Source of the DNA: an uncultured bacterium
Lineage (GTDB): Bacteria; Patescibacteriota; Minisyncoccia; UBA6257; 2-01-FULL-56-20
Assembly (NCBI GenBank): GCA_963844965.1
Contig: CAWJQC010000007.1
Span: 64,001-128,000, forward strand
Reading direction: 5' to 3'
DNA length: 64,000 nt
A model generated the notes under the pieces. That model saw nothing but the letters and a program-made list of their open reading frames with translations. It was not told the origin of the DNA and did not search any database. Of the stretch, positions 19,863 through 57,700 are shown in pieces (the first letter of the stretch is position 1; the number at the start of each line of letters is the position of its first letter). The translations under genes and the position numbers were made by a program.

Positions 19863-19969
19863 GCAAAAGGGAAGTCACAGTTTGTGCACCGATTTCCTTA
19901 CACAAAATTAAAAAATATTGCTTGCTATGACAACAGGAATCGAACCTAAAATTGGAAGCCCCCGATATC

Positions 19970-20030
19970 CAGAGGCTATTATAAGTGTCCTTTCAGATAG
20001 AAATTATATGGAAAATCTGCATTTTAAATT
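19970..20030 (+). repeat. Copy 1 of a ~65-bp direct repeat (CCAGARGCTATTATAAGTGTC...AATTATATGGAAAATCTG...)
   Basis: About 85% identical to the copy at 22484-22545. Preceded 20 nt upstream by a tRNA T-arm-like motif (GGTTCGATTCC on the minus strand). Confidence 0.7.
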
Positions 20031-20577: not shown

Positions 20578-22263
20578 ATGAATAAAAAAACTTTAAGCGT
20601 ATTGATACTAATTTCTTCAGTAATGATCTCCGGTGTTATTGTCGGTTCGGCGATGGCGCAGACCCCGGCCGATCAAAGTACGACAACTTTATCCGCAAGT
20701 ATCACGTATCCGATTCCGGAATTGGGCAATTGTCAAAGTCAGGCGGATTGTAAAACCTTTTGCGACGATACCAAGAATACCGATGCCTGTTTGGCTTTTG
20801 CCCAAGCCAATAATTTAATGAGTTCCGACCAAGTGGCTGCCGCTAAAAAATTTGCGGATAGCGGAATGGTTGGTCCGGGCGGATGCAAGGGAGAAACCGA
20901 ATGCGACACGTATTGCGGCGATACGAGCCACATAGAAGAGTGTATTACGTTTGCGCAAAATAACGGATTGATGTCCGAACAAAAGCTACAGGAATCGCAA
21001 AAGGTTTTGGCAGCCATTAAAACAGGTGTCAAACCTTTGGGCTGCAATAGTGAGCAGGAATGTGAAGCATATTGTGCGACCGCTGAACATATGGAGGAGT
21101 GCATAAATTTCGGCACCGAGGCAGGAATATTGCCGGCTCAGGATCAGGAGAATGCGCGCAAAGTTTTGACCGCTATAAAAAATGGTGCCGTGCCTCCGTG
21201 CGAAGGTGATGCGTGTCCGGCTTTTTGCAGCAAACCGCAGAACGCGGATGCTTGCGAGAAGTTCCGTATCGAGGCTGGAATTCCGTCACGCTCCGAAATG
21301 ATAGTAGTTCAGGCAATACTTACTCTTATAGCAAAAGGAACTACTATGTCTACTTGCAGCGGTGCGCAAGGATGCCAGGATTATTGTTCTCAAGATGCCC
21401 ATGCTGAAGAATGCGCTAAATTTGCCGAGGATAATGGGGCGATTACGTCTTCAGAGGCAGAAGCAGCTATAGGCGGAGAAGCAGCGCCCGAAGGACCGGG
21501 TGGATGTAAGACTAAAGACGAGTGCGATGCTTATTGCAATAATCCGGATAATTCCGAAACTTGCTTTAATTATGCCAAGGATAACGGACTGATTTCCTCG
21601 GAAGACCTAAAGAAAATAGAAGATAGCCAGCAGCAAATGAAAGATTCTTTTAATAATATGCCCGCAGAGATATTAACCTGTTTAACTACTTCTTTAGGCG
21701 CAGACACGGTTGAAAAATTAAAAAGCGGAAACGCTATACCAGATCAGAAAACGGCCGAACAAATGAAGACTTGTTTTGACCAATACACTCCAACCGCTCC
21801 AACCGCTCCGGCTGGTCCGGGGAGTCAAGCCGGACAAAATCAGGGCGGACAAGGACAGGGTGGCGGAGGAGGTGGCAACGGTGGTGGTAGCGGCGGAGGT
21901 AGTGGCGGGGGAGGACAGGGCCAAGGTAACCAACCAACCCAACCTACTCAACCGAGCCAACCTATGCAACCAACCCAACCTACTCAACCGGGCCAGCCGA
22001 CTCAGCCCAGCCAACCATCACAGCTACTACCTCAGACGGGCCCCGGTGGATGCAAAACCATCGAAGAATGTAAGACGTATTGCCAGGCGCATCCGGAAGC
22101 TAAAACAGAGTGTCAGCAATTTAAGCAGAGTCAACAGGGACAATCTGGACAGAATCAGCCGACGCAAGGCCCGAATAATCAACAACCCAGTCAACCCAGC
22201 CAGCCGACTCCACCGCAACCTCCGACTCAGCCTACTCCACCAAGTCAACCAAGCCCGCCATAA
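20578..22263 (+). CDS. Secreted cysteine-rich repeat protein with a G-rich and (PTQ)n-rich C-terminal tail
   Basis: Signal peptide followed by at least six ~40-aa repeats of the pattern GGCKxxxECDxYCx6-8CxxFAxxNGLxS. Then a GGGGGNGGGSGGGSGGGG stretch and PTQPTQPSQP repeats. Confidence 0.8.
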   Translation: MNKKTLSVLILISSVMISGVIVGSAMAQTPADQSTTTLSASITYPIPELGNCQSQADCKTFCDDTKNTDACLAFAQANNLMSSDQVAAAKKFADSGMVGPGGCKGETECDTYCGDTSHIEECITFAQNNGLMSEQKLQESQKVLAAIKTGVKPLGCNSEQECEAYCATAEHMEECINFGTEAGILPAQDQENARKVLTAIKNGAVPPCEGDACPAFCSKPQNADACEKFRIEAGIPSRSEMIVVQAILTLIAKGTTMSTCSGAQGCQDYCSQDAHAEECAKFAEDNGAITSSEAEAAIGGEAAPEGPGGCKTKDECDAYCNNPDNSETCFNYAKDNGLISSEDLKKIEDSQQQMKDSFNNMPAEILTCLTTSLGADTVEKLKSGNAIPDQKTAEQMKTCFDQYTPTAPTAPAGPGSQAGQNQGGQGQGGGGGGNGGGSGGGSGGGGQGQGNQPTQPTQPSQPMQPTQPTQPGQPTQPSQPSQLLPQTGPGGCKTIEECKTYCQAHPEAKTECQQFKQSQQGQSGQNQPTQGPNNQQPSQPSQPTPPQPPTQPTPPSQPSPP

Positions 22264-22483
22264 CAACCAACTCCACCACAACTGCCGACTCCGCCAAGCA
22301 GTTTCTTGCGACAAACGCAGAAGTTTTTAGGGAGCATCTTGGATGTATTCACGAGGTAAGGATTTTTGCAATAAAATAGATTGTTATTCCTCCCGGCCCT
22401 CTCCTTCGGTTCGAATCCAGACTGTCAAAACGAGAAATAAAAATGAACGGCGCAAGACCGTTCATTTTTATTTTAGCTCCAGG

Positions 22484-22545
22484 TTCCAGAAGCTATTATA
22501 AGTGTCTTATCGGATAGGAATTATATGGAAAATCTGTATTCCAAG
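22484..22545 (+). repeat. Copy 2 of the ~65-bp direct repeat
   Basis: Aligns with 19970-20030. It lies 43 bp from the IS3 copy A end and is preceded by a bidirectional hairpin terminator (22437-22470) and a T-arm-like GGTTCGAATCCAG motif. Confidence 0.7.
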
Positions 22546-22644
22546 TTTTACATTTTGAGGGAGATGGAGCGGTTGGAAATATCTAAATGTAAAGGATAGG
22601 TTTCTTTAGACAGTGATTCGACGGCTTTTTGCCGTTTTTTTTCG

Positions 22645-23427
22645 TTAAGCCGCAATCTTCTCGGCAAACACGGACGGCGGCATCTTGAGGGCGGAGTGGA
22701 TCCGCGTGTGGTTGTACTGCCACAAGGTGCTGTAGATCTCCGCCACGAGCTCGCCGAAGGTCCCGAACCGGTTGGGATCACCGAGGTCAATCTTGAACTT
22801 GTCATAGAACGATTCCTGGTAGCCGTTTTCCCATGGGGCACCGGGCCGCGACCGCGAGATCGTGATGCCACAGTCCCCCAGTGTATCGGTGAACGCTCGT
22901 GCCTTGTACTCGCTGCCGTTGTCCGAATGGAAGATGACCGGATGCGGATGGTGGAAAAGCGCGTTGGCCAGGGTCTGTATCGTGAGGGGCGATCCTTTCC
23001 GCAACGCCACATGGACGCCCATCAATCGTCTCGTGAAAAGATCGAGTATCGTGGACACGTACACTTTCTTGCCGCGATACAGGAACTCCGTGAAATCGGT
23101 TGCCCAGACGTGGTTCGCGTACGAGGGCATGATGGCAAGTAAGAGGTTCGGAAAGGCCCGCGATGCCTTTGATTTCCGGTATTTCCTGCCTCGCCTCCGG
23201 TACGGCCTTATGCCGAAGATTCGCATGACGCGCTGCGCTCGCGGACGGCTCACGCCCAGAGCTTGTCCCAAGCGCCGGGAACCGTATGCCGGATGGCGCT
23301 GCAATTCTTCTTCCATGCGGATCTTGAGCGCCCAATCTTTCTTGTCCTGCCGTGATACGTAGTAGAGCGATGCCCGCGAGACGCCCATGGCCCGCGCCAT
23401 GGCGGACTTGTTCCGCTTTTCCGTCAA
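22645..23427 (-). CDS. IS3-family transposase OrfB (DDE integrase, rve domain)
   Basis: HSDNGSEYKARAF...PGAPWENGYQESFY rve-type DDE motif. Confidence 0.9.
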   Translation of the reverse strand: MTEKRNKSAMARAMGVSRASLYYVSRQDKKDWALKIRMEEELQRHPAYGSRRLGQALGVSRPRAQRVMRIFGIRPYRRRGRKYRKSKASRAFPNLLLAIMPSYANHVWATDFTEFLYRGKKVYVSTILDLFTRRLMGVHVALRKGSPLTIQTLANALFHHPHPVIFHSDNGSEYKARAFTDTLGDCGITISRSRPGAPWENGYQESFYDKFKIDLGDPNRFGTFGELVAEIYSTLWQYNHTRIHSALKMPPSVFAEKIAA

Positions 23428-23687
23428 TTCTTTTTTTGGGCCTGGGAGAGCTTCACGGTGAGCTCGCCCACCACTTCAAACAGCTCCCTGTTCTGCTTCT
23501 GGAGACGGCTGAACTCGCCCCAGGAAGGGACGCCCGATGCTCCTGCGCCTAGCCAATTGTAGATGGTGGACTCGTGCAAACCGTGGTCCTTCGCAGCCTG
23601 CGCTACGGGGACTCCTTCTTCCTTCACCCGGCGGAGGATGTCCGCCTTCACTTCCTTCGCAATCCGATGCCCTTTTTTGTTGCTCAT
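23424..23687 (-). CDS. IS3-family transposase OrfA (HTH)
   Basis: HTH segment VPVAQAAKDHGLHESTIYNWL. The ORF ends at an A AAA AAG slippery site that overlaps the start of orfB. Confidence 0.85.
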   Translation of the reverse strand: MSNKKGHRIAKEVKADILRRVKEEGVPVAQAAKDHGLHESTIYNWLGAGASGVPSWGEFSRLQKQNRELFEVVGELTVKLSQAQKKN

Positions 23688-23741
23688 GACACAATGGTAG
23701 TTTGTTTCGACCTTTGTGTCTAAATTATCCTATCCGGGTCA

Positions 23742-23773
23742 ACCTTTGTGTCTAAATTATCCTATCCGGGTCA
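23742..23773. repeat. 32-bp tandem duplication of the IS3 left terminal repeat
   Basis: CCTTTGTGTCTAAATTATCCTATCCGGGTCA occurs twice in tandem at 23711-23741 and 23743-23773. Confidence 0.8.
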
Positions 23774-23777
23774 AGTG

Positions 23778-23951
23778 ATGGTTGATTTAAGTAAGCTCTA
23801 TCCCGATATTGATATTGCCGAAACGCTCTCGAACCTAACGGGAAAATGGATCAAGACAATCAAGGGCAATAAGGTTGAATTTTCTGATGGTAGCGAGATA
23901 GATACAAGCGATATGGATTACAAACTTATTAAGCCATTGATTTGGTGGTAA
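23778..23951 (+). CDS. 57-aa ORF whose N-terminus resembles that of the downstream helicase (possible 5' duplicate fragment)
   Basis: MVDLSKLYPDIDIAETL...GKW versus MSKLYLQDIVEDIPFDDLPAKW in the next gene. It overlaps that gene's start by 10 nt. Confidence 0.35.
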   Translation: MVDLSKLYPDIDIAETLSNLTGKWIKTIKGNKVEFSDGSEIDTSDMDYKLIKPLIWW

Positions 23952-23953
23952 AT

Positions 23954-26650
23954 ATGTCGAAGTTGTATTTACAAGACATAGTTGAGGACATCCCGTTTGA
24001 TGATCTGCCCGCGAAATGGCAGGACTTTGACTTCGGCAGGTTTTCTTCCGATAAAACACTATTTGGCTTCCAGCAAAATGGCTTACGGAACGCTCTGAAA
24101 GCGCTCTGGCTTTTTTATAAAGATAGGAAGGGAAACAAAATAGAGCTTTATGAACAATATAAGGCAAATGGCTTGGGCGCGGATTTTGATTATGATTTGA
24201 CGCGAGAAAGAAAAGCCGCTGACCATCTTTTGGAATTTGATACGGATTATCCGAAAACAGACGGCAAAATTGCTTTTGCCCACTTCTTAAACCGCATGAG
24301 CTTTTGGATGGCTACGGGCTCTGGAAAGACGCTGATTATCGTAAAACTCATTGATATGCTCGGCGCTTTAATGAGGCAAAAAGAGATTCCTCAAAACGAT
24401 ATTCTGTTCTTGGCTCATAGGGACGACCTTTTGGAACAATTCAAAAATCATGTGGATCAATTCAATAGCTTCAATTTTGAAACAAGAATCAACTTCAAGA
24501 GCTTGAAAGATTATGAGAGCGTCAAGCGCGAGAACGCTCTGCCATTTGCAAAAAACGAGATAACGGTATTCTACTACCGCTCGGATTTAATATCAGACGA
24601 GCACAAAGAAAAAATTGTCAATTTCAAAAATTATGATAACGGCGGCAAGTGGTATGTTCTTCTCGATGAGGCGCACAAAGGCGATAGAGAGGACAGCAAA
24701 AGACAGATTCTATATTCAATCCTTTCAAGAAGCGGCTTTCTGTTCAATTTTTCCGCTACCTTTACCGATCCGCGGGATTACGCAACCTGTGCCTTTAATT
24801 TCAATCTTTCAAAATTCATTGAGGATGGTTACGGCAAGCATATTTATGTATCAAGCGCGGAAGTAACGGCTTTCCGCGATCAAGACGACTTCTCAAAAAT
24901 TACGAAGCAGAAAATCGTTTTGAAAACGCTGATACTGCTTACATATATCAATAAGTATTTTGAGAAGGTTCGGAAACAGGATAAAAAGCTGTATCATCGC
25001 CCACTCCTTCTTACTCTCGTCAATTCCGTTGATACGAAAGATGCGGACTTAAAGCTGTTCTTTTCCGAACTGGAAAAGATAGCCAAAAATGAAATAAGAG
25101 GCGACTTGATTGAAAAAGCCAAAGAGGAACTCATAAAAGAATTTGAAGAAAATCCGCAATATGAATTTGAGGGCATAAATGTAGAGATTGATAAGGCCTC
25201 GCTCAAAAAAATCTGCTATAAGGATATTTTGAAGCAGATTTTCAACGCAAAATCTTCTGGTAATATCGAGGTTTTGAAAATTCCGAATAACAGAAACGAA
25301 ATAATCTTTAAGCTGCAAACTTCTGAAAAACCATTCGGGCTGATTAAGATCGGGGATATTTCGGGATGGCTTAAGGAAACGCTTGAGGGTTATGAAATAA
25401 TCGAGAGCTTTGAGAATGAAAGCGTATTTAAGCGGATCAACCACGATGACTCCGAAATTAACATTCTGATGGGCTCCCGTGCCTTTTACGAGGGCTGGGA
25501 CTCAAACAGGCCGAACATTCTCTTATTCGTAAATATCGGCATCGGAAGCGACGCAAAGAAGTTTGTCCTGCAATCCGTTGGCCGAGGCGTAAGAATTGAA
25601 CCGCAAAAGAATAAACGGAAAAGAATTTTGGAATTGCACAACGCAAAAGAAATAAAGACAGAGCTATTTAATAAAATCCGAAGCAATATACAAGCGCTTG
25701 AGAGCTTGTTCGTATTCGGAACAAACGCCGATAATCTGAAGGAAATAATCAAGGCGCTGAAAGAAGAAAAACAAGAGCAAGATTTAGGTGCCGAATTTAT
25801 TATAAATAAAGATGCTGAAAAACGGCTGTTGCTTATACCTACTTACCGAGAATCGGAAAAGATATTTGCCGAAGAAAAAGAGCCGCAGAAATACGGAATC
25901 AGCCGAGAGGACTTGGCACTCGCAAAATCAATGTTCAGCTATCTTGGCGATAAAGTAACTCTGGCAAAATTTGAGTGTGAAGTAAGGGTTATTAAAAAGA
26001 CAGCCGAGAGTTTTGAAACAGCCGAGCAATACTTTGACCTTAACGAGGAGAGGTCAATTTCCGAGCCAGATTTGCTGGTTGATAGGATACTGGACTACTT
26101 CAGCGTCAGGGATAAAGAATTTGATAAATTCAAAAAACTGGAAAACGAGATCGTCCACTTCAAGCGGATAAGGTTTAATGACGGCGAGAAGTTTGAAGAA
26201 ATAAAACAGAAAATCGGCAAAATAAAGGAGTATCCAGAAAGACAGCGAGAACTGGATAAACAATACGGAAAAATATCGCGGGAAGAATTTGCGAGAAAGC
26301 AGGCGAGTTTGTTTGACGCGCAGACCTTTGAATACAAGAGCAAAAAGCTAAAAATCAAATATATCCAAAACCATTACTACATTCCTCTGATTATTTCAGA
26401 AAATGAAAAAGTTGATTATCTCAACCACATTATTGATGTTGAAAGCGAAGTCCGTTTCATAGAACAATTGGAAGAATACCTACAGCAGGACGACAATGTA
26501 TTCAAACAATTTGATTGGTGGATGTTCTCAAAGCTCGATCAAACGCTGGACGAAGTTCATGTGCCGTATTACAGCCCAAAAGAAAACAATATGGCAAGGT
26601 TTAAGCCCGACTTTATCTTCTGGCTGCAAAAGGTGACCCGGATAGGATAA
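23954..26650 (+). CDS. SF2 helicase / Type III restriction Res-like protein (DEAH box), C-terminally truncated by IS3 copy B
   Basis: Motif I MATGSGKT, motif II LLDEAHKG, and motif VI QSVGRGVR. The C-terminus ...FKPDFIFWLQK runs 17 nt into the IS terminal repeat and stops (KVTRIG*), as if the PD-(D/E)xK nuclease motif were cut off. Confidence 0.7.
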   Translation: MSKLYLQDIVEDIPFDDLPAKWQDFDFGRFSSDKTLFGFQQNGLRNALKALWLFYKDRKGNKIELYEQYKANGLGADFDYDLTRERKAADHLLEFDTDYPKTDGKIAFAHFLNRMSFWMATGSGKTLIIVKLIDMLGALMRQKEIPQNDILFLAHRDDLLEQFKNHVDQFNSFNFETRINFKSLKDYESVKRENALPFAKNEITVFYYRSDLISDEHKEKIVNFKNYDNGGKWYVLLDEAHKGDREDSKRQILYSILSRSGFLFNFSATFTDPRDYATCAFNFNLSKFIEDGYGKHIYVSSAEVTAFRDQDDFSKITKQKIVLKTLILLTYINKYFEKVRKQDKKLYHRPLLLTLVNSVDTKDADLKLFFSELEKIAKNEIRGDLIEKAKEELIKEFEENPQYEFEGINVEIDKASLKKICYKDILKQIFNAKSSGNIEVLKIPNNRNEIIFKLQTSEKPFGLIKIGDISGWLKETLEGYEIIESFENESVFKRINHDDSEINILMGSRAFYEGWDSNRPNILLFVNIGIGSDAKKFVLQSVGRGVRIEPQKNKRKRILELHNAKEIKTELFNKIRSNIQALESLFVFGTNADNLKEIIKALKEEKQEQDLGAEFIINKDAEKRLLLIPTYRESEKIFAEEKEPQKYGISREDLALAKSMFSYLGDKVTLAKFECEVRVIKKTAESFETAEQYFDLNEERSISEPDLLVDRILDYFSVRDKEFDKFKKLENEIVHFKRIRFNDGEKFEEIKQKIGKIKEYPERQRELDKQYGKISREEFARKQASLFDAQTFEYKSKKLKIKYIQNHYYIPLIISENEKVDYLNHIIDVESEVRFIEQLEEYLQQDDNVFKQFDWWMFSKLDQTLDEVHVPYYSPKENNMARFKPDFIFWLQKVTRIG

Positions 26651-26687
26651 TTTAGACACAAAGGTCGAAACAAACTACCATTGTGTC

Positions 26688-26951
26688 ATGAGCAACAAAA
26701 AAGGGCATCGGATTGCGAAGGAAGTGAAGGCGGACATCCTCCGCCGGGTGAAGGAAGAAGGAGTCCCCGTAGCGCAGGCTGCGAAGGACCACGGTTTGCA
26801 CGAGTCCACCATCTACAATTGGCTAGGCGCAGGAGCATCGGGCGTCCCTTCCTGGGGCGAGTTCAGCCGTCTCCAGAAGCAGAACAGGGAGCTGTTTGAA
26901 GTGGTGGGCGAGCTCACCGTGAAGCTCTCCCAGGCCCAAAAAAAGAATTGA
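26688..26951 (+). CDS. IS3-family transposase OrfA (HTH)
   Basis: Identical to the product of 23424-23687. Confidence 0.85.
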   Translation: MSNKKGHRIAKEVKADILRRVKEEGVPVAQAAKDHGLHESTIYNWLGAGASGVPSWGEFSRLQKQNRELFEVVGELTVKLSQAQKKN

Positions 26952-27730
26952 CGGAAAAGCGGAACAAGTCCGCCATGGCGCGGGCCATGGGCGTCTCGCG
27001 GGCATCGCTCTACTACGTATCACGGCAGGACAAGAAAGATTGGGCGCTCAAGATCCGCATGGAAGAAGAATTGCAGCGCCATCCGGCATACGGTTCCCGG
27101 CGCTTGGGACAAGCTCTGGGCGTGAGCCGTCCGCGAGCGCAGCGCGTCATGCGAATCTTCGGCATAAGGCCGTACCGGAGGCGAGGCAGGAAATACCGGA
27201 AATCAAAGGCATCGCGGGCCTTTCCGAACCTCTTACTTGCCATCATGCCCTCGTACGCGAACCACGTCTGGGCAACCGATTTCACGGAGTTCCTGTATCG
27301 CGGCAAGAAAGTGTACGTGTCCACGATACTCGATCTTTTCACGAGACGATTGATGGGCGTCCATGTGGCGTTGCGGAAAGGATCGCCCCTCACGATACAG
27401 ACCCTGGCCAACGCGCTTTTCCACCATCCGCATCCGGTCATCTTCCATTCGGACAACGGCAGCGAGTACAAGGCACGAGCGTTCACCGATACACTGGGGG
27501 ACTGTGGCATCACGATCTCGCGGTCGCGGCCCGGTGCCCCATGGGAAAACGGCTACCAGGAATCGTTCTATGACAAGTTCAAGATTGACCTCGGTGATCC
27601 CAACCGGTTCGGGACCTTCGGCGAGCTCGTGGCGGAGATCTACAGCACCTTGTGGCAGTACAACCACACGCGGATCCACTCCGCCCTCAAGATGCCGCCG
27701 TCCGTGTTTGCCGAGAAGATTGCGGCTTAA
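26948..27730 (+). CDS. IS3-family transposase OrfB (DDE)
   Basis: Identical to the product of 22645-23427. Probably expressed as an OrfAB fusion through a -1 frameshift. Confidence 0.9.
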   Translation: MTEKRNKSAMARAMGVSRASLYYVSRQDKKDWALKIRMEEELQRHPAYGSRRLGQALGVSRPRAQRVMRIFGIRPYRRRGRKYRKSKASRAFPNLLLAIMPSYANHVWATDFTEFLYRGKKVYVSTILDLFTRRLMGVHVALRKGSPLTIQTLANALFHHPHPVIFHSDNGSEYKARAFTDTLGDCGITISRSRPGAPWENGYQESFYDKFKIDLGDPNRFGTFGELVAEIYSTLWQYNHTRIHSALKMPPSVFAEKIAA

Positions 27731-27861
27731 CGAAAAAAAACGGCAAAAAGCCGTCGAATCACTGTCTAAAGAAACCTATCCTTTACATCGGGCAAAAAGT
27801 TAGAGTTTACAATGCGAAAACCGTTTGATGCGGTCCTCGAATTGGCTACTTGTCCAACTGG

Positions 27862-27933
27862 GCTCCGGCGCCTGGATTCGAACCAGGAACCTTCTCCTTA
27901 ACAGGGAGCCGCTCTACCGTTGAGCTACGCCGG
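27862..27933 (-). tRNA. tRNA-Asn (GTT anticodon)
   Basis: Cloverleaf with acceptor TCCGGCG/CGCCGGA, D-arm GCTC-AACGGTA-GAGC, anticodon loop CTGTTAA, and T-arm CCTGG-TTCGAAT-CCAGG. The first base is U1, as in E. coli tRNA-Asn. CCA is not encoded. Confidence 0.8.
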
Positions 27934-28087
27934 AATCCTTATTCTTATTAATGTATCAAAAAAACAGATTTTTTTCAATCTCGCCAGCCGCAATGCTGCG
28001 AGATCATACTTTAATGTTGAAAAAAAAGAAAAAAGCCGAGTGGTTGGAAAAGTTAGGAAAGGCGGCGTAAAAATTAAAACGTCCCGG

Positions 28088-38775: not shown

Positions 38776-39795
38776 ATGACCGAGTTGAAAAATCGGACTT
38801 TATATTTCGGCGACAATCTGGAAATCCTACGCGAGAAAATTCCCGACGAGAGTTTTGATTTGATTTACCTTGACCCGCCGTTCAATTCCAACCGTGCCTA
38901 CAATGTAATTTATAAGGAAGGGTTGCAGGACAGCCCGGCACAAATTAAGGCCTTTGAGGATTCTTGGCATTGGACGCCGGAGGCGCAGGCAACTTTTGAG
39001 GAACTTGTCGGCATGCGGCAATCAAGGACGAAAATCAACGCTGACATTGTCAATTTGATGCAGGCGATGGAAAAACTCGTGGGACACAATGATATGCTTG
39101 CGTACCTTACAATGATGACAGTTCGGCTCATTGAACTGCGGCGCGTTTTGAAGTCAACCGGCAGTATTTATCTGCATTGCGACCCGACCGCAAGCCATTA
39201 TTTGAAAATCGTGATGGACACGATTTTCGGAAAACAGAATTTCCAAAACGAAATTATTTGGTGTTATGAAATCGGAGCTAGAAGTAAAACACACTGGGGG
39301 AGTAAACACGATGTAATTCTCTTTTATACAAAATCAGGAAACTTTATCTTTAACACAAGGGCCGTTGCTGTGCCACGGAAAGAAGGGACACACATGAAAA
39401 CCGCAGTAGACGAAGAAGGAAGAGAATATCAAGAAAAGAAGGATGCAAAAAGTGGTAAGGTCTATAGATATTATCTTGATGAAGGCGCCATCCCTCCCGA
39501 TTGGTGGGTGGGAATTCAGCAATTAAATCGTGAAGCACAAGAAAGATTGCATTATCCCACCCAAAAACCCGAAGCGCTTCTGGAAAGAATTATTAAGGCA
39601 TCGTCTAACGGACCTCCGCCAAGTCCTTCGCTGATTGCGACAGAGACAGAGGAGGTGGAGGAGAATAGAGGCGATTGGGTTCTTGACCCGTTTTGCGGTT
39701 GCGGCACGACGGTTGCCGTCGCCGAGCGGCTGAAAAGAAACTGGGTCGGCATTGACCCGCTCCGCCGCAAGCCCCGGCCTTTAGGCCGAGGATAA
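38776..39795 (+). pseudogene. N4/N6 DNA methyltransferase (beta class) whose 3' end is interrupted by an IS200/IS605 element
   Basis: DPPFN motif IV near the N-terminus and DPFCGCGTT motif I near the C-terminus. The reading frame runs into IS sequence after ...NWVGID. Confidence 0.8.
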
Positions 39796-49420: not shown

Positions 49421-49580
49421 TTGCCAGAAATTCGCGCCGCCATAAAAATTTCCGCGGGTGTTTGCCTGCTGGTAGGGCGGTTATGTTTTCGGATTTTTTC
49501 CGATTTCGTTTCCGCCGAGGGCGGATTAGCTTCCGATAGAAACCTACGGCGAGCCGTCGGGTAATTCAAGCGTCCTCACC

Positions 49581-50367
49581 GCCCGCCGGTTAACAATTGT
49601 TAACCGGCGGGCGGGAAGAGCAGGGTGTAATGAGGCGCGTAGCTCACCTGGCTGCTAATGGCGCGGCGCGATTTTCTCGCGCTAATTTCCGGGATGCGAA
49701 CCATTTCAGGATTTTCGGCAGATCGTTTTTGCTGATAACAAAAGCCCTCCCGATGCGGGTTGCCGGAATTCTCTTTTTGTCTATATTTTTGAAAACCGCG
49801 ACGCGGCTGATGCCCAAAACTTTCGCAAGTTCCGCCGTGGATATGAATTCCTTGTTGATCTCGTCCGCCATTCTCCGCATTTTCATTTTTCCACCTTAGC
49901 ACAATATCCGCGGGTTAACAATTGTTAACTTTGTCGGAATGGTAATCGGCCATAGTTAAAATCATAGTCAAAATGGTGGCTCATCTAGTGATTTGCCTCT
50001 GGTTGGGGGCTCTGAGTATCAACCAGTACCGGTTAACAATTGTTAACTTTGTCAGAATAGTGATTTGACATAGTTAGAACAATTAGAATGGTGACCTGCC
50101 ATAGTCGCATAGTCACGTGGCTCGTCCTTGGTGGTGGACTTTGGGCATCAATCGGCGCGGGTTAACAATTGTTAACTTTGTCAGAATGGTAATCTGTAGC
50201 CGGCGGGATCTCTGGCGGAGTCCTCCGCCAGGGGCGTGGTATCCCGGACATCAACTGGCGCCGGTTAACAATTGTTAACCGAGCAACAGAAAACAAAACC
50301 GAGAAAAAATCCCCCCAGTCATTTTTTCATCGTTTTTCCGTCCGCAGGTTAACAATTGTTAACCTGC
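49581..50367. repeat. Array of six perfect 16-bp palindromes GTTAACAATTGTTAAC. Copies 2-5 sit within ~100-130-bp degenerate tandem repeat units.
   Basis: Palindrome cores at 49589, 49914, 50032, 50161, 50264 and 50348. Three are extended to 22-32-bp perfect palindromes (for example GCCCGCCGGTTAACAATTGTTAACCGGCGGGC at 49581-49612). Copies 2-4 share a TTTGTCRGAATRGTRATY extension, and repeat units share ...ATCAAYNNNNCSGGTTAAC. Confidence 0.85.
49644..49886 (-). CDS. Excisionase-family / MerR-like helix-turn-helix DNA-binding protein
   Basis: ISTAELAKVLGISRVAVFKNIDKKRIPATRIGRAFVISKNDL matches the excisionase-family HTH pattern. Confidence 0.7.
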   Translation of the reverse strand: MKMRRMADEINKEFISTAELAKVLGISRVAVFKNIDKKRIPATRIGRAFVISKNDLPKILKWFASRKLARENRAAPLAAR

Positions 50368-50484
50368 ACTGTGCGCTGCCTGTTGACTATTACTGACTAT
50401 TAAAAAATGCGGGTAGATAAAGCGAGCACGGTATGGAGTTGGGGCCGCTTGACGATGCGCGGTCGCGGTGTTAATTTCATAAAT

Positions 50485-51141: not shown

Positions 51142-52107
51142 ATGAAAAAGAAGGCGATAAAAAATGAAATTGTAATATATCAGGCCAAAAACGGAGCGAT
51201 AGAATTTCGTAAGGACTTGCGCGCAGAAACGATTTGGGCAACGCAGGCGCAGATCGTTAAACTTTTTGATATTGATCAGTCAGTAGCTTCGCGGCACATA
51301 AGCAATATCTTCAAGGACGGCGAGGTTGACAAAAAAAGCAATATGCAAAAAATGCATATTGCAAATTCGGACAAACCAGTTGTTCTTTATTCACTCGATA
51401 TGATTTTAGCAGTCGGATATAGGACGAACTCGGGACGGGCGATAACTTTCCGCCAGTGGGCAACCAAGACCTTGCGGGCGCATATTATAGATAGCTATAC
51501 CATCAACCGTGCTCGCATTGCCCAGAATTACGAAGTTTTTCTGAAAGCGGTGGAAGATGTAAAAAAACTTCTTCCAACGGGCGGAGCAGTGGATATTGTC
51601 AATGTATTGGAATTGATCAAGACATTCGCGAGTACCTGGGTATCGCTGGATGCCTACGACAAATCCGCTCTGCCAAAGAGCGGCGCTACAAAAAAACAGG
51701 TTAAACTGACGGCGCAGGATTTCTCGGCCGCGCTCCTTGAACTTAGGCGGGAATTAACGGCCAAAAAAGAAGCCAGTGAACTTTTCGCGGTTGAACACCA
51801 GAAAGGAAACGTGACCGGTATAGTCGGCAACGTACTCCAATCCTTCGGCGGCAAAGACCTCTATCCAAGTGTTGAAGAAAAAGCGGCCCACCTTTTGTAT
51901 TTTATGGTTAAGAATCATCCGTTCACTGACGGCAACAAACGAGCAGGCGCATTTTCGTTCGTATGGTTTTTGAGAAAAGCCGGATTGCTGAATACCGCGC
52001 GCCTTACTCCCGAAGCCTTGACGGCGCTCACTCTGCTCGTTGCGGAAAGCAGTCCGAAAGACAAAGAGCGGGTAGTCGGATTGGCTCTTCTGCTTTTAAA
52101 AAAGTAG
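51142..52107 (+). CDS. RhuM-family N-terminal domain fused to a Fic/Doc domain
   Basis: N-terminal IVIYQAKNGAIEFRKD...WATQAQIVKLFD (RhuM-like). C-terminal HPFTDGNKRAG (Fic/Doc motif HxFx(D/E)GNKR). Confidence 0.7.
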   Translation: MKKKAIKNEIVIYQAKNGAIEFRKDLRAETIWATQAQIVKLFDIDQSVASRHISNIFKDGEVDKKSNMQKMHIANSDKPVVLYSLDMILAVGYRTNSGRAITFRQWATKTLRAHIIDSYTINRARIAQNYEVFLKAVEDVKKLLPTGGAVDIVNVLELIKTFASTWVSLDAYDKSALPKSGATKKQVKLTAQDFSAALLELRRELTAKKEASELFAVEHQKGNVTGIVGNVLQSFGGKDLYPSVEEKAAHLLYFMVKNHPFTDGNKRAGAFSFVWFLRKAGLLNTARLTPEALTALTLLVAESSPKDKERVVGLALLLLKK

Positions 52108-52375: not shown

Positions 52376-53062
52376 ATGTCACAAGAGCAAATTAGGAAAA
52401 AAAATGGAGGCGCGGCAATCAAGGCTTTAGTCTCGGCAGGAGAAGAGATTTTGTCTAATTTGCAGCGAGTTATTGCTGTTGGCGGTTTCGATTATCGCAC
52501 TTTTGGTACGGCCATCGAGAAACACCTTAGCAATATTATTGTCAAAATTTTTAAAGAGAGAGGTTTTATTAGAAATAATCGGGATTACATTGTTGCACCA
52601 CATAAAAATTATTTTCCTGATTTTGAGTTAAAAACTGCGCCGCCCATTGCGATAGAGTTTAAATCCGGCAATAAAAGTCAGAACAGAAAGGGCAAATGGG
52701 TTACCGTTAAAAACAGCGAGAACGATATGGGCACGTTGAACGAGTGGCCCAAAAAGATTAAAAGATTTGGGGGAGAAAATATATACTATGTTTTTGTAAT
52801 CTATAATTTTAATAAAAAAACGAAACAGATCTTGAGTATAGAAATAGCCCCATTTTATAAATTTTTAGGACTTAGCAAGGGAAGCGTTCTTAAATATAGA
52901 GAAAAAGACGGAAATTTGCGGCCAAAAAATTTCGACGCCGAACCGCCGATAAAAAACCTGAGTCAGTTTGAGCAGTTATTTAATAAAACTATAATTTACA
53001 GATCAAAACGAATAATCAAAAAACACAAGCTAATTATTAAAAAAGCATCCTCGGGTTCTTGA
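52376..53062 (+). CDS. PD-(D/E)xK Type II restriction endonuclease candidate
   Basis: FPDFELKTAPPIAIEFKSG fits the PD...ExK pattern. Convergent with the methyltransferase and overlaps its 3' end by 26 bp. The start was chosen at the Met directly downstream of the conserved motif. Confidence 0.55.
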   Translation: MSQEQIRKKNGGAAIKALVSAGEEILSNLQRVIAVGGFDYRTFGTAIEKHLSNIIVKIFKERGFIRNNRDYIVAPHKNYFPDFELKTAPPIAIEFKSGNKSQNRKGKWVTVKNSENDMGTLNEWPKKIKRFGGENIYYVFVIYNFNKKTKQILSIEIAPFYKFLGLSKGSVLKYREKDGNLRPKNFDAEPPIKNLSQFEQLFNKTIIYRSKRIIKKHKLIIKKASSGS

Positions 53063-54617
53063 CGTTCACAGGGCTAGCTTTTTTATTAATTTGTTTTCTG
53101 GCAATAGCGAATGCGGGGTTATCTATCGGATAGATTCCTTCATCTTCGGATATCGTTAAATTTCTCAGATATTTTGATGCAACTTCTGGGGTATCGCCAT
53201 TGTATTTATAGCCGTTACTTGATCTATAATTAACTTTTTTGAGCTTGTCCGCAACAATTTTTTTATATTTTGGATCTATGTCAATACCGATATAGTTTCG
53301 GCCGAGTCGCTTTGCGGCCAATGCGGTTGTTCCTGCCCCAACGAAAGGATCTAGTACCACGTCGCCCTCGTCCGTCGTCATCAGAATCAAGCGTTCAAGT
53401 AGCGGCTCCGGAAGTTGGCACGGATGGGCGTCTCTGCGCGCATTATGTCTTATGCGGTGAATATCGGCCCAAACATCGCTTAGAAGTGTTCCGTGCGGGT
53501 GTATCTGACTTTTCTTTCCTCCGTAATCTTTGATCATTTTGCCACAACTCCGGCATTTCTTATGTGGCGCCCTAAGTTCGTGGAATTTAAATCCTTTGGG
53601 AAGTTTTGTATAGAATAGTATTCCGTAGTGTGCGGGTAATAAGGTTTTGCCTAAAGGCGTACTCATTGAATCCCACGCGATCCAGTGTTTAAAGACCGCA
53701 ATCTTATTGAGATGATTAGCATAATAAATTAACCACTTTGGTATATTGTGGACCAAAATAGAGCCCGTTGGTTTAGTTATTCTAACCATCTCGGTTAGCC
53801 ATTGCTCACACCACTTTATATAATCTTCCGCCGCTTTTTTGTCTTTATAGCTGCCGTATTTCTTATTTAGGTTAAATGGAGGGTCCGCGAAGGTCATATC
53901 AATTGAGTCGGCGGGAAGTTTTCTCATTTCCTCAATCGAATCTCCGCATAAAATTTCGTTGAGCGGTATCTTTTTGTATTGCTTATATTCTGTTTTTGTT
54001 TCCGGAAAGGTGACAGTAGAGGGAGTTTCTTCGCTGATAACATCGAGTACTATTCCTTGTATGGAAATATCCCGGCCATTTCGAAAGATTAGAGGCTCCA
54101 TGTTTTTGTTCGCCGGTTGTAAACGGATTCGGCCCCGTTCTTTATAGAATTTTTTAAGCGTTGCTTCGTGATTATCTATAAGTGCCACCACCTTTTGTCC
54201 ATTTTCGGCAACGCCCTGTTGTTTAACCAAGACGAGATCGCCATTGTTTATATTTTCGTCAACCATACTGTTTCCGACCACGCGTAGAGCGAAGAATTCT
54301 CCGGAGCGGGGAAGTTTGCTTTGCGGAACGGCAATGGTTTCTTTTTCCTCAACAGCTTCAATCGGCTGGCCGGCAGCTATGATGCCTAACAGGGGGATGC
54401 TAACCATTTTTTCCGATTCAGAAATTTGAATGCCGCGTCGCTTGTTCTCTTCTATTCGCAGGTGGCCGCCTTCCTGGAGCTTCTGAAGGTGTTCATGAAT
54501 GGTTCCGACTGCTCGCTTAAAATGTTTAGCTGTCTCCGGGATAGAAGGAGAGTAGCCATGTTTTTTTGAGTACGTTTTAAAAAAATCCAGAACCTCCTTT
54601 TGTTTTTTAGTGATCAT
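53037..54617 (-). CDS. LexA-like repressor (HTH plus S24 peptidase domain) fused to an N4/N6 DNA methyltransferase
   Basis: N-terminal ~200 aa: KQKEVLDFFK...HL, IPLLGIIAAGQPIEA, GNSMVDENINNGDLVLV and ATLKKF, the Ser/Lys dyad context of LexA. C-terminal ~320 aa: DPPFN, VLDPFVGAGTT and GIDIDPKY methyltransferase motifs. Confidence 0.75.
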   Translation of the reverse strand: MITKKQKEVLDFFKTYSKKHGYSPSIPETAKHFKRAVGTIHEHLQKLQEGGHLRIEENKRRGIQISESEKMVSIPLLGIIAAGQPIEAVEEKETIAVPQSKLPRSGEFFALRVVGNSMVDENINNGDLVLVKQQGVAENGQKVVALIDNHEATLKKFYKERGRIRLQPANKNMEPLIFRNGRDISIQGIVLDVISEETPSTVTFPETKTEYKQYKKIPLNEILCGDSIEEMRKLPADSIDMTFADPPFNLNKKYGSYKDKKAAEDYIKWCEQWLTEMVRITKPTGSILVHNIPKWLIYYANHLNKIAVFKHWIAWDSMSTPLGKTLLPAHYGILFYTKLPKGFKFHELRAPHKKCRSCGKMIKDYGGKKSQIHPHGTLLSDVWADIHRIRHNARRDAHPCQLPEPLLERLILMTTDEGDVVLDPFVGAGTTALAAKRLGRNYIGIDIDPKYKKIVADKLKKVNYRSSNGYKYNGDTPEVASKYLRNLTISEDEGIYPIDNPAFAIARKQINKKASPVNVKNPRMLF

Positions 54618-54798: not shown

Positions 54799-57700
54799 AT
54801 GCGAATAGCAAATAAGCTATCCGCGCACCAATCCCGCCTGGCGGGATGGTGCGGGATTTCGCTCCGCGGATCTACTCATTTGATAAAGCAAATGCGCGTT
54901 GGAAGCCGCGGAGCTCAACTTTTTGTTGTGTTGATTTTCTGTTTTGTTTTCCTGCCGTATCCCGGTGTCGTTTCGGCTTACGATAATTTGACGACACATC
55001 CGGCGCTCACGCAGGAGGTTGTTGATTTCTACAACAACGGCGGAAATTCCATAACGGCGGAGGAAAAAGAATGGATTATACAAGGGAGCGTTGAGGAAGA
55101 CACGCCGCCGAGGTGGCTGAACCATTTTTACGACCCGATAAGCGGGCAGGGTTGGACCGGCGAAAACACGGGAGAGTTGCCGTCAAGCTTTGTCTTGGAA
55201 TTTTCCGACCTATTTCTCGCGCCGGCAGACCCCGTCTCCGCCGTGCATTGGGTGAATGACGAGCTCACGCAATTGGAATACGGCCGCTATGGCGGCGACT
55301 GGACATGGAAACGCGGGCTCAGATATTTTGCCGACGGCGACAAGAAAGACGCCTATATTGCTTTGGGCCACACCCTGCATCTTTTGGAAGATATGGCCGT
55401 GCCGGAGCACACGAGGAACGATACGCACGTTGACCTGGGCGGCGTGGCGGGCGAATACGGTTCGCCGTACGAGGAATACGCGACCAAGTGGACGCGTACG
55501 ACGATTGGCGATTTGCACATTGTGGACGCGCTTCGCGCCGAGAACGCGACACCGCCCGCGAAAACATCAATTGAGGATTATTTGATTTCCGTCGCGCAAT
55601 ATTCCAATAAATATTTTTTCTCCAAGGATACGATTAACTCGGCGAAGTATTCTCTGCCGAAAATCGTCCGAGATGACGGGAATTTCGGATATGGAATTGA
55701 TGAAAATGAAACAGAGTTTCCGTTGGTAAAAGTTCATCAAACGAAAGATGCGAACAACAATATCCTTACGGGATATTCTATTGAGAACCTTCAAGATTAT
55801 CACCCTGTCCTTGATGCCTACTTTTCTCATCTCGCCCGGCAGGCGGTTCTGAACGGAGCGGGCGCGATAGCTTTATTCCAAAAGCAGGCGCAGGACGCCG
55901 TCGTCAACAAAGATTTCCAGTTCCAGACGGTGAACGAGGACGTGGTGAAGCCCGTCGTCTCCGGATTCTCTCTTTATGGTGAATTTGTGCAGGCGGCGAA
56001 TACGGTTGGAAGTTTCATCGGCAACGCTTTCTCCACGGTCGGCGGCTGGTTCGGCAGCGGCGGCGCGTTGATTGCCGACGCGTTCGGGACGATTACCGGC
56101 CCGAACGAGATAACGATTGTCCCTGAATTAACGACGTCGGACATCGTTAATTCGGGGAATAATGCAACATCAGGACATCCGACGTCCGAGAATTGCGTTA
56201 ATGTTGGGGACGTCGGATGTCCAAGCATTGGCGCGACAAATTCTACACAACATTCCAACATTCTTGAGAATGTTGGAATGTTGTCGTCCACCGTTGTCGG
56301 AGATGTTCCGGCTCAATCGTCGTCGCAGGAAGAACTCGCGGCCGCGCTTGGCAGGTTGGTTGAATTACTGCGGGGTCGGTTTGCGGCGAGTGTCGCGCCG
56401 ACATCCACCCAAATTGCGCCGGTTGCCGGCGGCGGTTCGGCGCTGCTTACCGCAAGCGGCGGCGGAAATTCTCCGGGCGGCGTGAGCATCGTGCTCGCGG
56501 ACGCGGGAGGAGCGTCAACGGCCGGATCGCAAACGGATTCAACGAGTTCCTCGCAGACGGATTCCACAAATTCCGCGAGTTCAACCGATTCACAGCAAGC
56601 CGGTTCCGGGCAGGCCTCCTCAACCGATTCGGGTCAAGCAACTTCAACCGATTCCTCCCAGCAAAATTCCAGCTCGGGAGAGACCACTTCCACCGGTTCA
56701 GGGATTGCCGTTTTGCTGGCCGACGTTCCCTCATCCATGTTTGCCCAGCGCGTTGATTCCACGGTATCAATTGGAAGCGATTACTCCGACAGCTGGTACG
56801 AGTTGGGAACTGGATTTTCCGGAACAATACACTCGCTCACGTTCTACGGATACGCCGATATCATCAGGCCGGATTTCGCCTCGCACATTTGGCTTGATGA
56901 GTTTAACGACCCGGGTTACGCAAGTTCCAGCAACCACTGGGTGATTTCCGATAACGCGCCGTTCGGCACGAGCGCCGGTTATGTCACGATTGGCGGCTTG
57001 AACATCACACTCTCGCCCGATAAATATTATCGCCTGGACACCTATCAGAGCGAGCAGAACAGAAATGTTTATCTCCTGGGCACGAGTTCCACGGGCACGG
57101 CGATGCGCAACTGGTTTTCCTATGGCACGGGGCGCGTGGAAGAACTTTATACTTTTTATCCGTACATCGTGGCGGATAAGCCGGTTCTAAATATTTCTTC
57201 ACTCGCGCAATATCAGCCGGACGGAACGACGGCGATCGGCGAAGGAGACGAGATAAGCGGGGACGCGGTTGCTCTCGGCGCGGTGCCGCAGTCATCGCCG
57301 GAGGGTCACCTGCAGCTGGAGGCACAAATGTTCACGACCGTGTCGCAGGGCGCGTGGTTCTCAAATCCTGTCGTTGACGCAGCCGGTTCTTTTGTTGCGT
57401 CCGGCGGCACGGCGACAGTTGCCGTAAAATTGCCGCGGAACGGATTTTACCATTGGCGCGCGAGGGCCGTGAATATTTGGGGCGACACTTCGGATTGGCT
57501 GGAGTTCGGAACACCGGGCAACACGGACTTCACGGCGCTTCACGTTTATCCAACACCGCCTCCGAGCCAGACGGTTTTTGATGCTTCTACAACATTGCCG
57601 ATGTCCGTCGGCTGCGAGAACGTGACAGGGGACGGGAGCGTGATAAGCAACGTCCGGGTTAAATACAAAACTGCAGATGCCGGCAACAATCCGCGTTTCA

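What the first reader, a model, noticed from the sequence alone, without database searches (positions are those of the whole stretch)
23778..26650. Orphan Type III Res-like DEAH helicase, cut at its C-terminus by the IS, preceded by a small ORF that mimics its N-terminus
Motifs I (MATGSGKT), II (DEAH) and VI (QSVGRGVR) identify an SF2 helicase. The ORF ends ...FKPDFIFWLQK-VTRIG* inside the IS terminal repeat. This looks like a PD-(D/E)xK nuclease motif severed after PD. No Mod methyltransferase is adjacent. The upstream 57-aa ORF starts MVDLSKLYPDIDIAE..., resembling the helicase N-terminus MSKLYLQDIVEDIPFDDL. This suggests a partial 5' duplication created during IS activity. The locus may be a decayed Type III R-M or defence helicase.
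Basis: partly seen in the sequence, partly recalled or inferred. Interest (0 to 1): 0.5.

Follow-up and report, generated by a model that had tools for sequence, protein, structure and literature searches.

The report
IS-truncated Type III restriction operon remnant
This is the wreck of a Type III restriction-modification operon: the last 60 codons of the methylase gene and 893 of about 976 codons of the helicase-nuclease gene, caught between two identical, oppositely oriented insertion sequences. It is ordinary gene decay by mobile elements, not a new system.

Summary
The helicase ORF is real. Motifs I, II (DEAH) and VI are present, and the ORF runs 5 codons into the terminal repeat of an IS3-family element. 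All 119 other listed homologs keep the C-terminus. They continue after FKPDFIFW(L/M)QK with GKxYxILFVDPKG, so the IS cuts a PD...DxK nuclease motif between PD and DxK.

The "mimic" ORF is not a duplicate of the helicase N-terminus. It is the last 60 codons of the mod methyltransferase gene, 93% identical to residues 761-820 of the 820-aa Mod upstream of res in intact operons. A second, 100% identical IS copy in inverted orientation cuts it.

So the locus is IS / mod-remnant + res-remnant / IS. The central 2860 bp is 40% GC in a roughly 49% GC genome. Intact relatives have HTH, mod, res and a serine recombinase.

The remnant should be dead as a restriction system, because it has no methylase or recognition subunit and no nuclease catalytic centre. 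The res frame is otherwise unspoiled (dN/dS 0.02), so the truncation is recent.

Ordinary finding, low interest.

The parts
22588..23741 (-). Left IS3-family insertion sequence (1154-1155 bp). orfA is at 23424-23687 and orfB at 22645-23427, both on the minus strand. IRR is at the outer (left) end and IRL at the inner end.
   Evidence: It has 0 mismatches to the right copy over 1155 nt. Matches: HTH_Tnp_1, rve, and NCBIfam transpos_IS3 at 189.8 bits against a cut-off of 160.
23742..23773 (-). Extra, exact 32-nt tandem copy of the IS left inverted repeat. It lies between the left IS and the mod remnant.
   Evidence: It is identical to 23710-23741. Homology to mod begins right after it. Its origin is unresolved: slippage, remnant of an earlier IS copy, or an untrimmed overlap at an assembly join.
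23774..23951 (+). 3' remnant of the Type III mod gene, about its last 60 codons. It is annotatable as a 57-aa ORF from ATG 23778 or a 67-aa ORF from GTG 23748 inside the IR.
   Evidence: 56 of 60 residues are identical to residues 761-820 of the 820-aa Mod of L001. PADLOC MTase_III matches model positions 763-816 of 816, E 6.8e-7. The DNA alignment shows homology starting at the IS end.
23954..26633 (+). Truncated res gene: 893 native codons plus 1 nt out of about 976. It contains helicase motif I (24308-24331), DEAH (24665-24676), motif VI (25571-25594) and the PD of the nuclease motif (within 26603-26614).
   Evidence: 93% identical to the 976-aa P0002, P0003 and P0004. Pfam ResIII and PADLOC REase_III hits. 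Ungapped 85% nucleotide identity to L001 over 2858 nt. Homology ends at 26633.
26634..26650 (+). IS-encoded tail of the res ORF: V(shared codon)TRIG plus the TAA stop, all inside IRL.
26634..27787 (+). Right IS3-family insertion sequence. orfA is at 26688-26951. The A7G slippery site is at 26938. orfB is at 26948-27730 in the -1 frame. IRL is at the inner end and IRR at the outer end.
27859..27935 (-). tRNA-Asn(GTT), 71 nt beyond the right IS. It is context, not part of the remnant.
   Evidence: ARAGORN and Rfam tRNA at 68 bits. There is no second copy of its 3' end in the window.

Best explanation
The interval holds the middle piece of a horizontally acquired Type III restriction-modification operon (mod then res). 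An IS3-family element has cut off both of its ends.

Shown:
- One IS copy abuts codon 761 of mod.
- An identical inverted copy abuts codon 893 of res, between the PD and the DxK of the C-terminal nuclease motif.
- The rest of mod, the upstream HTH gene, the res 3' end and the downstream serine recombinase gene seen in intact relatives are absent from the 64-kb window.

Inferred:
- The remnant cannot restrict or methylate. In Type III enzymes Mod supplies sequence recognition and methylation, and Res needs Mod. Here Res has also lost two of its conserved nuclease residues (D903 and K905, P0003 numbering).
- What remains is at most an ATPase/translocase core with a 5-residue IS-encoded tail, with no recognisable promoter in front of it.
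- The event is recent, because the 893 codons carry no frameshift, stop or excess of unusual substitutions.
- The lack of target-site duplications at all four IS junctions means the present arrangement needed more than two simple insertions. The most likely extra step is recombination between IS copies (deletions or inversions) after insertion.
For: Res truncation:
- Homologs are 971-1000 aa long and continue with GKxYxILFVDPKGTEH.
- In 82 sequences of 31-89% identity, E832, D886 and P904 are invariant and P885, D903 and K905 are nearly invariant.
- The AF2 model (pLDDT 89) places PD before strand 887-893 and DPK at the end of strand 896-903, followed by a helix.
- DNA homology stops at the IS end.

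Mod remnant.

Intact operon architecture (HTH_17, mod, res, serine recombinase):
- Seen in L001, L002 and L087.
- The L001 Mod matches PADLOC MTase_III at 2.5e-215. Two of its top five PDB sequence hits are named Type III Mods (7dsu Mbo45V, 4zcf_A EcoP15I Mod); the top hit, 6k0w, is annotated only 'Adenine specific DNA methyltransferase (Mod)'; 6pbd (CcrMI) and 1g60 (MboIIA) rank second and third.

Fold of Res:
- The Foldseek top hit is EcoP15I Res, 4zcf_C.

IS elements:
- The two copies are identical, inverted and of the IS3 family.

Foreign origin:
- The segment is 39.7% GC, against 47-51% for the flanks and 56.8% for the IS.

Recent event:
- dN/dS is 0.023 against L001. There are five window-specific, conservative changes at otherwise invariant columns, against two to three in its closest relatives P0002-P0006.

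Other:
- No other mod or res pieces lie in the window.
- No plus-strand promoter-like site lies upstream of the remnant.
- That restriction needs both subunits and that Mod recognises DNA comes from PMC8259958. That the Mod CTD docks Res comes from PMC4490356.
Against: - There is no sequence-level similarity to EcoP15I Res, even with an 82-sequence profile. The 'Type III' label therefore rests on domain order, the partner Mod, a REBASE-derived PADLOC model and fold similarity. The fold similarity does not cleanly separate Type III Res from Type I HsdR.
- The clean frame and strong purifying-selection signature are equally compatible with the remnant still being under selection.
- No related genome with an empty site was found. 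Assembly in situ versus import of the block is therefore unresolved.
- The contig is a metagenome assembly, and a path through two identical 1.15-kb repeats cannot be verified here.
Confidence: 0.9

Rival explanations
1. The block IS / mod-remnant + res-remnant / IS is a composite transposon. It formed in another genome by two IS insertions into an intact operon and then transposed as a unit into the intergenic space beside tRNA-Asn.
For: - Two identical IS copies in inverted orientation flank the segment, with matching (IRR) outer ends.
- The segment has foreign GC content.
- Both outer junctions fall in non-coding DNA. Removing 22588-27787 would leave about 185 nt between a hairpin at 22435-22473 (a perfect 16-nt inverted repeat, read here as a terminator) and the tRNA.
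- This IS family moves between phyla. A 76% identical copy, a 75-nt miniature derivative in Saccharibacteria and a solo IRL in Acidobacteriota were found.
Against: - There is no target-site duplication across the unit...CTAAA on the left against TCGGG... on the right. No other pairing of the four flanks, direct or inverted, gives one either. The miniature derivative in L004 does show an AATC duplication.
- The same unit was not seen anywhere else, although no collection was searched for the unit itself (neither the composite block nor its IS/remnant junction sequences).
- The cargo has no evident selectable function.
Confidence: 0.25
2. The arrangement, or part of it, is an assembly artefact. 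The assembler threaded a collapsed multi-copy IS to join DNA that is not contiguous in any one genome. The 32-nt tandem IR copy would be an untrimmed overlap (k-1 for k = 33) at a join.
For: - The two IS copies are 100% identical.
- Three distinct GC classes meet exactly at IS ends.
- An exact 32-nt duplication ends precisely at the repeat/unique boundary.
- No target-site duplication is present anywhere.
- The source genome is a metagenome-derived contig absent from the gene-position index.
Against: - All four junction types (two IRR-flank, two IRL-remnant) are needed. A single chromosomal IS cannot supply two IRR-to-chromosome junctions.
- Even if the chromosomal placement were chimeric, the truncation of mod and res at IS ends would still be real sequence in the sample.
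- The other three junctions carry no duplication.
Confidence: 0.1
3. The truncated Res is retained because it is useful. It could act as a nuclease-less SF2 translocase, possibly with the Met-initiated Mod C-terminal peptide. It might work with another methyltransferase in the genome or as a dominant-negative or decoy against incoming Type III systems.
For: - The 893-codon frame is intact, with dN/dS 0.023.
- An AGG to ATG change creates a start codon 5 nt inside the junction, giving the 57-aa ORF.
- In EcoP15I the Mod C-terminal domain is the part that contacts Res.
- Stand-alone Mod C-terminal ORFs sit next to intact Res homologs in other genomes.
- Other N6_N4 methyltransferases are present in the window.
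Against: - The low dN/dS mostly reflects divergence before the truncation (dS is about 1.5, i.e. saturated).
- No promoter-like site was found.
- The remnant keeps only about half of a domain the size of the EcoP15I CTD.
- The nuclease residues and the whole recognition subunit are gone.
- The other methyltransferases match Mod only over their catalytic core.
Confidence: 0.05
4. One reading: the small ORF is a partial 5' duplication of the helicase gene, generated during IS activity.
For: There is a short resemblance, LSKLYPDIDIAE against MSKLYLQDIVED.
Against: - 95 of 2000 shuffles reach the score, and BLASTP does not report the alignment.
- The ORF is 93% identical to the Mod C-terminus and colinear with res exactly as in intact operons. 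The same faint resemblance is present there too.
Confidence: 0.01

Closest known systems
Type III restriction-modification systems (EcoP15I / EcoPI; Mod2Res1)
   Same: - The gene order is mod then res, tightly spaced.
- Res has an N-terminal SF2 motor (motifs I, DEAH, VI), a helical spacer and a C-terminal PD...DxK nuclease in the intact relatives.
- Mod is a beta-class N6_N4 methyltransferase. Its full length matches a REBASE-derived Type III model, and named Type III Mods (7dsu Mbo45V, 4zcf_A EcoP15I Mod) are among its five best PDB sequence hits; the top hit, 6k0w, is annotated only as 'Adenine specific DNA methyltransferase (Mod)'.
- EcoP15I Res is the best Foldseek match of the modelled Res.
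(PMC4490356, PMC8259958)
   Different: - There is no detectable sequence similarity of Res to EcoP15I Res.
- Mod of the intact relatives is 741-820 aa, against 644 aa for EcoP15I Mod.
- The relatives carry an HTH_17 gene upstream and a large serine recombinase gene overlapping the res stop.
- In this window the system is a remnant lacking 93% of mod and the catalytic half of the nuclease.
IS3-family insertion sequences (IS911, IS3, IS150 type; copy-out/paste-in)
   Same: - It has orfA (HTH) and orfB (DDE rve) in 0 and -1 frames, with an A7G slippery site just before the orfA stop.
- It has imperfect terminal repeats beginning 5'-TG and ending CA-3'.
- NCBIfam transpos_IS3 scores above its cut-off.

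   Different: - It is small, at 1154 bp.
- Neither copy here has a target-site duplication.
- One copy carries an extra exact 32-nt copy of its left end.
Composite (compound) transposons with inverted IS arms, such as Tn10 and Tn5 (from general knowledge)
   Same: Two identical IS copies in inverted orientation bracket a 2.86-kb segment of foreign composition.
   Different: - There is no flanking target duplication.
- The cargo is two gene fragments.
- No second occurrence of the unit was seen, although no collection was searched for the unit itself.
Type I HsdR and Type ISP (LlaBIII) motor subunits
   Different: - From general knowledge, the HsdR nuclease is N-terminal and works with HsdM and HsdS. 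Here the nuclease motif is C-terminal.
- The partner in intact relatives is a single Type III-like Mod, with no HsdS.

Membership tests
Type III R-M Res subunit | SF2 helicase/ATPase core with motifs I, II (DEAH) and VI | tested here: met
   Pfam ResIII scores E 3.6e-18. The motifs are located at 24308-24331, 24665-24676 and 25571-25594.
Type III R-M Res subunit | C-terminal PD-(D/E)xK endonuclease domain | tested here: not met
   The window copy ends after PD (K893) and lacks D903-P-K905. Intact homologs have the motif, which is invariant or nearly so in 82 sequences.
Type III R-M Res subunit | Cognate beta-class Mod gene immediately upstream in the same orientation | tested here: not met
   Only the last 60 codons of mod remain. 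An intact Mod of 741-820 aa is present in L001, L002 and L087.
Type III R-M Res subunit | Sequence similarity to a biochemically characterised Res (EcoP15I) | tested here: not met
   phmmer and two profile searches against PDB sequences gave no hit. There is only a partial hit to PADLOC REase_III, E 7e-27.
Type III R-M Res subunit | Fold similarity to EcoP15I Res | tested here: inconclusive
Type III R-M Res subunit | ATP-dependent cleavage requiring Mod and two inversely oriented unmethylated sites | not testable with these tools
   This is a biochemical property (PMC8259958).
IS3 family insertion sequence | orfA/orfB with a programmed -1 frameshift and a DDE (rve) transposase | tested here: met
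   HTH_Tnp_1 and rve match. transpos_IS3 scores 189.8 bits against a cut-off of 160. A7G lies at 26938 before the orfA stop, and orfB is in the -1 frame.
IS3 family insertion sequence | Terminal inverted repeats, 5'-TG...CA-3' | tested here: met
   IRL is TGACCCGGATAGG... and IRR is TGTAAAGGATAGG....
IS3 family insertion sequence | Short (3-4 bp) target-site duplication flanking each copy | tested here: not met
   None is present at either copy in any pairing of flanks. A miniature derivative in L004 has an AATC duplication.
Composite transposon | Target-site duplication flanking the whole IS-cargo-IS unit, and the unit found at more than one site | tested here: not met
   The outer flanks are CTAAA and TCGGG. 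The unit was not found elsewhere. The search for an empty site failed because no close relative was available.

The most novel reading that the evidence does not exclude
The IS-bounded module (a Met-initiated Mod C-terminal peptide plus a nuclease-less Res motor) is not mere debris. It would be a selected, potentially mobile unit, for example a translocase or decoy that interferes with Type III enzymes. More broadly, in this Type III family mod would be a recurrent landing pad whose conserved N- and C-terminal arms let other cassettes (Type II R-M genes, IS21, IS3) replace its core while res is kept.
Probability: 0.06. Interest if true: 0.45.

Novelty: new member of a known kind. Interest (0 to 1): 0.15.

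Why it matters
It matters little beyond annotation. The 898-aa 'DEAD/DEAH box helicase' and the 57-aa 'hypothetical protein' in the source record should be annotated as res and mod pseudogene fragments bounded by IS3-family elements. They should not be counted as a defence system or an orphan helicase.

The locus is a clean example of how an active IS dismantles an acquired R-M operon. In this Res family, disruption of mod with res left intact recurs in unrelated genomes. That fits the rule that Type III Res is harmless without Mod.

Tried and rejected
- Partial 5' duplication of res: rejected.\n- Missing mod 5' or res 3' pieces elsewhere in the window, as expected after an IS-mediated inversion: none found by tblastn. 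The only other hits are the catalytic cores of two unrelated N6_N4 methyltransferases.\n- Target-site duplications in direct, composite, recombination-inversion and replicative-inversion pairings: none.\n- tRNA-Asn as an island attachment site: there is no second copy of the tRNA 3' end in the window.\n- Empty-site test: exact look-ups of four window proteins failed because the source genome is not in the gene index. Relatives of the ribonucleotide reductase (87% identity or less) keep the reductase-tRNA-Asn adjacency in L007 and L013 but share no synteny beyond it.\n- Sequence link to EcoP15I Res: three PDB sequence searches were negative.\n- First AF2 run with only close homologs was unusable, at pLDDT 50.6. 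It was rerun with a diverse alignment.\n- A hot spot for truncation at Mod residues 743-773: initially suggested by three lineages. It was weakened when the recurrent 71/72- and 76/77-aa ORF lengths turned out to start at conserved Met codons. The search itself returned only short proteins, a bias of the search.\n- Papers on IS911 targeted insertion next to IRs (PMC126149, PMC2546779) are not held. That idea for the doubled IR rests only on the reference list of PMC7986276 and my own recollection.
Full report
ANATOMY. The interval lies between two copies of one insertion sequence. The left copy is at 22588-23741 on the minus strand and the right copy at 26634-27787 on the plus strand. They have 0 mismatches over 1155 nt and are in inverted orientation. 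Each copy has an 87-aa orfA (HTH_Tnp_1) and a 260-aa orfB (rve). NCBIfam transpos_IS3 scores 189.8 bits against a cut-off of 160. An A7G slippery run at 26938 lies just before the orfA stop, and orfB is in the -1 frame. The ends are imperfect repeats, TGACCCGGATAGG... (IRL) and TGTAAAGGATAGG... (IRR). Both IRL ends face inward. The left copy is followed by an extra, exact 32-nt tandem copy of IRL at 23742-23773. The DNA between the two copies (23774-26633, 2860 bp) is 39.7% GC. The flanking 10 kb is 47-51% GC and the IS is 56.8% GC. A tRNA-Asn gene lies 71 nt beyond the right IS.

THE HELICASE GENE IS A TRUNCATED RES. The ORF from ATG 23954 to 26650 (898 aa) carries MATGSGKT, DEAH and QSVGRGVR. 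It matches Pfam ResIII (E 3.6e-18) and the PADLOC Type III restriction-enzyme model (E 7e-27). A database search gave 4506 homologs at E 1e-10 or better. The full-length ones among the 119 other listed hits are 971-1000 aa, and the closest (P0002, P0003, P0004; 93-94% identity) are 976 aa. Three shorter hits (855-865 aa) are short at the N-terminus and keep the whole C-terminus. In the alignment every homolog continues after FKPDFIFW(L/M)QK with GKxYxILFVDPKGTEH... and about 70 further residues. The window protein instead reads VTRIG and stops. At the DNA level, homology to the intact genes of L001 and L002 ends at 26633, one base into codon 894, where IRL begins. In an alignment of 82 family members down to 31% identity, E832, D886 and P904 are invariant and P885, D903 and K905 are nearly invariant. 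An AlphaFold model built on that alignment has pLDDT 89.1 and pTM 0.71. It places PD just before strand 887-893 and D-P-K at the end of strand 896-903, followed by a helix. This is the usual layout of a PD-(D/E)xK nuclease core; the layout is from general knowledge. About 83 residues are missing.

THE SMALL ORF IS THE END OF MOD. The 57-aa ORF (ATG 23778; open from GTG 23748 inside the IR) matches only the last positions (763-816 of 816) of a PADLOC Type III methyltransferase model. It is 56/60 identical to residues 761-820 of the 820-aa protein encoded directly upstream of res in L001. The DNA alignment shows homology to mod starting exactly at the end of the extra IR copy. It also shows the same 2-nt gap between the mod stop and the res ATG as in L001 and L002. 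BLASTP does not report it, and it is equally present in the intact operon. It is not a duplication.

CONSEQUENCE (inferred). In Type III enzymes Mod recognises the DNA and methylates it, and restriction needs both subunits (PMC8259958). With 93% of mod and the DxK half of the nuclease gone, the locus can neither methylate nor cut. No sigma-70-like site on the plus strand precedes the remnant. The only sites found are the inward transposase promoters in the two IRL copies. By position, the mod remnant falls in the region that in EcoP15I Mod forms the C-terminal domain contacting Res (PMC4490356). That correspondence is an analogy and was not tested.

AGE. The 2858-nt segment aligns to L001 without a single gap, at 85% nucleotide and 93% protein identity. 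dN/dS is 0.023 (dS about 1.5), no higher than between two intact genes (0.054 for L087 against L001). The window protein has 5 private, conservative changes at columns otherwise invariant in an 11-sequence alignment. Its closest relatives (P0002-P0006) have 2 or 3. The truncation is therefore recent relative to the divergence of these lineages. Continued selection is less likely but cannot be excluded.

HOW THE BLOCK AROSE (unresolved). None of the four junctions shares a 3-5 nt repeat with any other, whether paired as simple insertions, as a composite transposon, or as the products of an inversion. A 75-nt miniature derivative of the same IS in a Saccharibacteria contig does have an AATC duplication. 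Two simple insertions, or one composite transposition, are therefore not enough. The arrangement fits secondary recombination between IS copies (deletions or inversions). The missing mod and res parts are not within the 64-kb window. Import as a composite transposon is suggested by the clean intergenic position but contradicted by the missing duplication. No close relative was available for an empty-site test. The contig is a metagenome assembly. A path through two identical 1.15-kb repeats, and the exact 32-nt duplication at a repeat/unique boundary (the size of a k-1 overlap for k = 33), could be assembly products. Even then, the two IS/remnant junctions would still be real sequence.

FAMILY-LEVEL SIDE OBSERVATIONS.
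- Among other Res homolog loci, mod is often broken while res is intact.
- L088-L090 have an IS21-family element at about Mod residue 773, plus a second interruption.
- L091 and L092 have a cut at about residue 743-746.
- Petrotoga halophila has a frameshift that separates an 87-aa C-terminal ORF.
- L093 and L095 keep the N- and C-terminal parts of Mod, but the middle is replaced by other genes. In L095 these are an N6_N4 methyltransferase and a CfrBI-like endonuclease.
- The recurrent 71/72- and 76/77-aa ORFs start at conserved Met codons. The search that found them returned only short proteins. No frequency can therefore be claimed.
- The mod remnant is 95% identical in nucleotides to L001, against about 84% along res.

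VERDICT. The 'mimic/duplication' and 'no Mod' claims are wrong. The locus is an IS3-flanked remnant of a diverged Type III R-M operon. It is an ordinary product of IS activity, of low interest.

Noticed in passing
window 23710-23773: The terminal 32 nt of the left IS (IRL) are present twice in exact tandem, and the second copy abuts the mod remnant. This could be slippage, the relic of an earlier IS copy or a targeted insertion next to an IR, or an untrimmed overlap from an assembly join.
   Followed up: partly
window 23776-23780: The mod remnant reads GTG ATG GTT where L001 and L002 read GTG AGG GTT. This single change creates an ATG 5 nt inside the IS junction, and the source annotation uses it as the start of a 57-aa protein (P0193).
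   Followed up: partly
window 23774-23951 versus 23954-26633: The mod 3' end is far more conserved at the nucleotide level than res: 95% against about 84% identity to L001, and dS 0.21 against 1.54. This hints at a recombination boundary or a nucleotide-level constraint at the mod/res junction.
   Followed up: partly
L088, L091, L093, L095, L097 (related loci): In this Type III family mod is repeatedly disrupted while res stays intact. The causes are IS21 insertion, truncation, frameshift, and replacement of the Mod core by other genes, including a CfrBI-like Type II endonuclease plus a methyltransferase, nested between the retained Mod N- and C-terminal pieces.
   Followed up: partly
L004:1760-1834, L005:7725-7758, L003:5504-6659: Relatives of the IS were found in three other genomes. 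A Saccharibacteria contig has a 75-nt miniature IRL+IRR derivative with an AATC target duplication. An Acidobacteriota contig has a solo 34-nt IRL. A third MAG has a 76% identical full copy at a contig end.
   Followed up: partly
window 53037-54617 (-): A 526-aa ORF fuses a LexA DNA-binding domain and an S24 peptidase domain to an N6_N4 DNA methyltransferase. It lies next to a RhuM+Fic protein (51142-52107) and a 1063-aa ORF with no Pfam hit (54799-57990).
   Followed up: no
window 49571-50380: Six copies of the 18-bp palindrome GGTTAACAATTGTTAACC, within 34-nt repeats, are spread over about 800 bp. They look like an operator or iteron array.
   Followed up: no
window 19968-20030 and 22485-22547: A 63-nt repeat (86% identity) lies downstream of two different genes. 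The second copy ends 40 nt from the outer end of the left IS.
   Followed up: partly
window 38776-39795 (+): A further stand-alone 339-aa N6_N4 DNA methyltransferase. It is unrelated to the Type III mod except for the catalytic core.
   Followed up: no
window 20578-22263 (+): A 561-aa predicted secreted protein with repeated Cys-containing modules and a long Gln/Pro/Gly-rich low-complexity tail. It has no Pfam hit.
   Followed up: no
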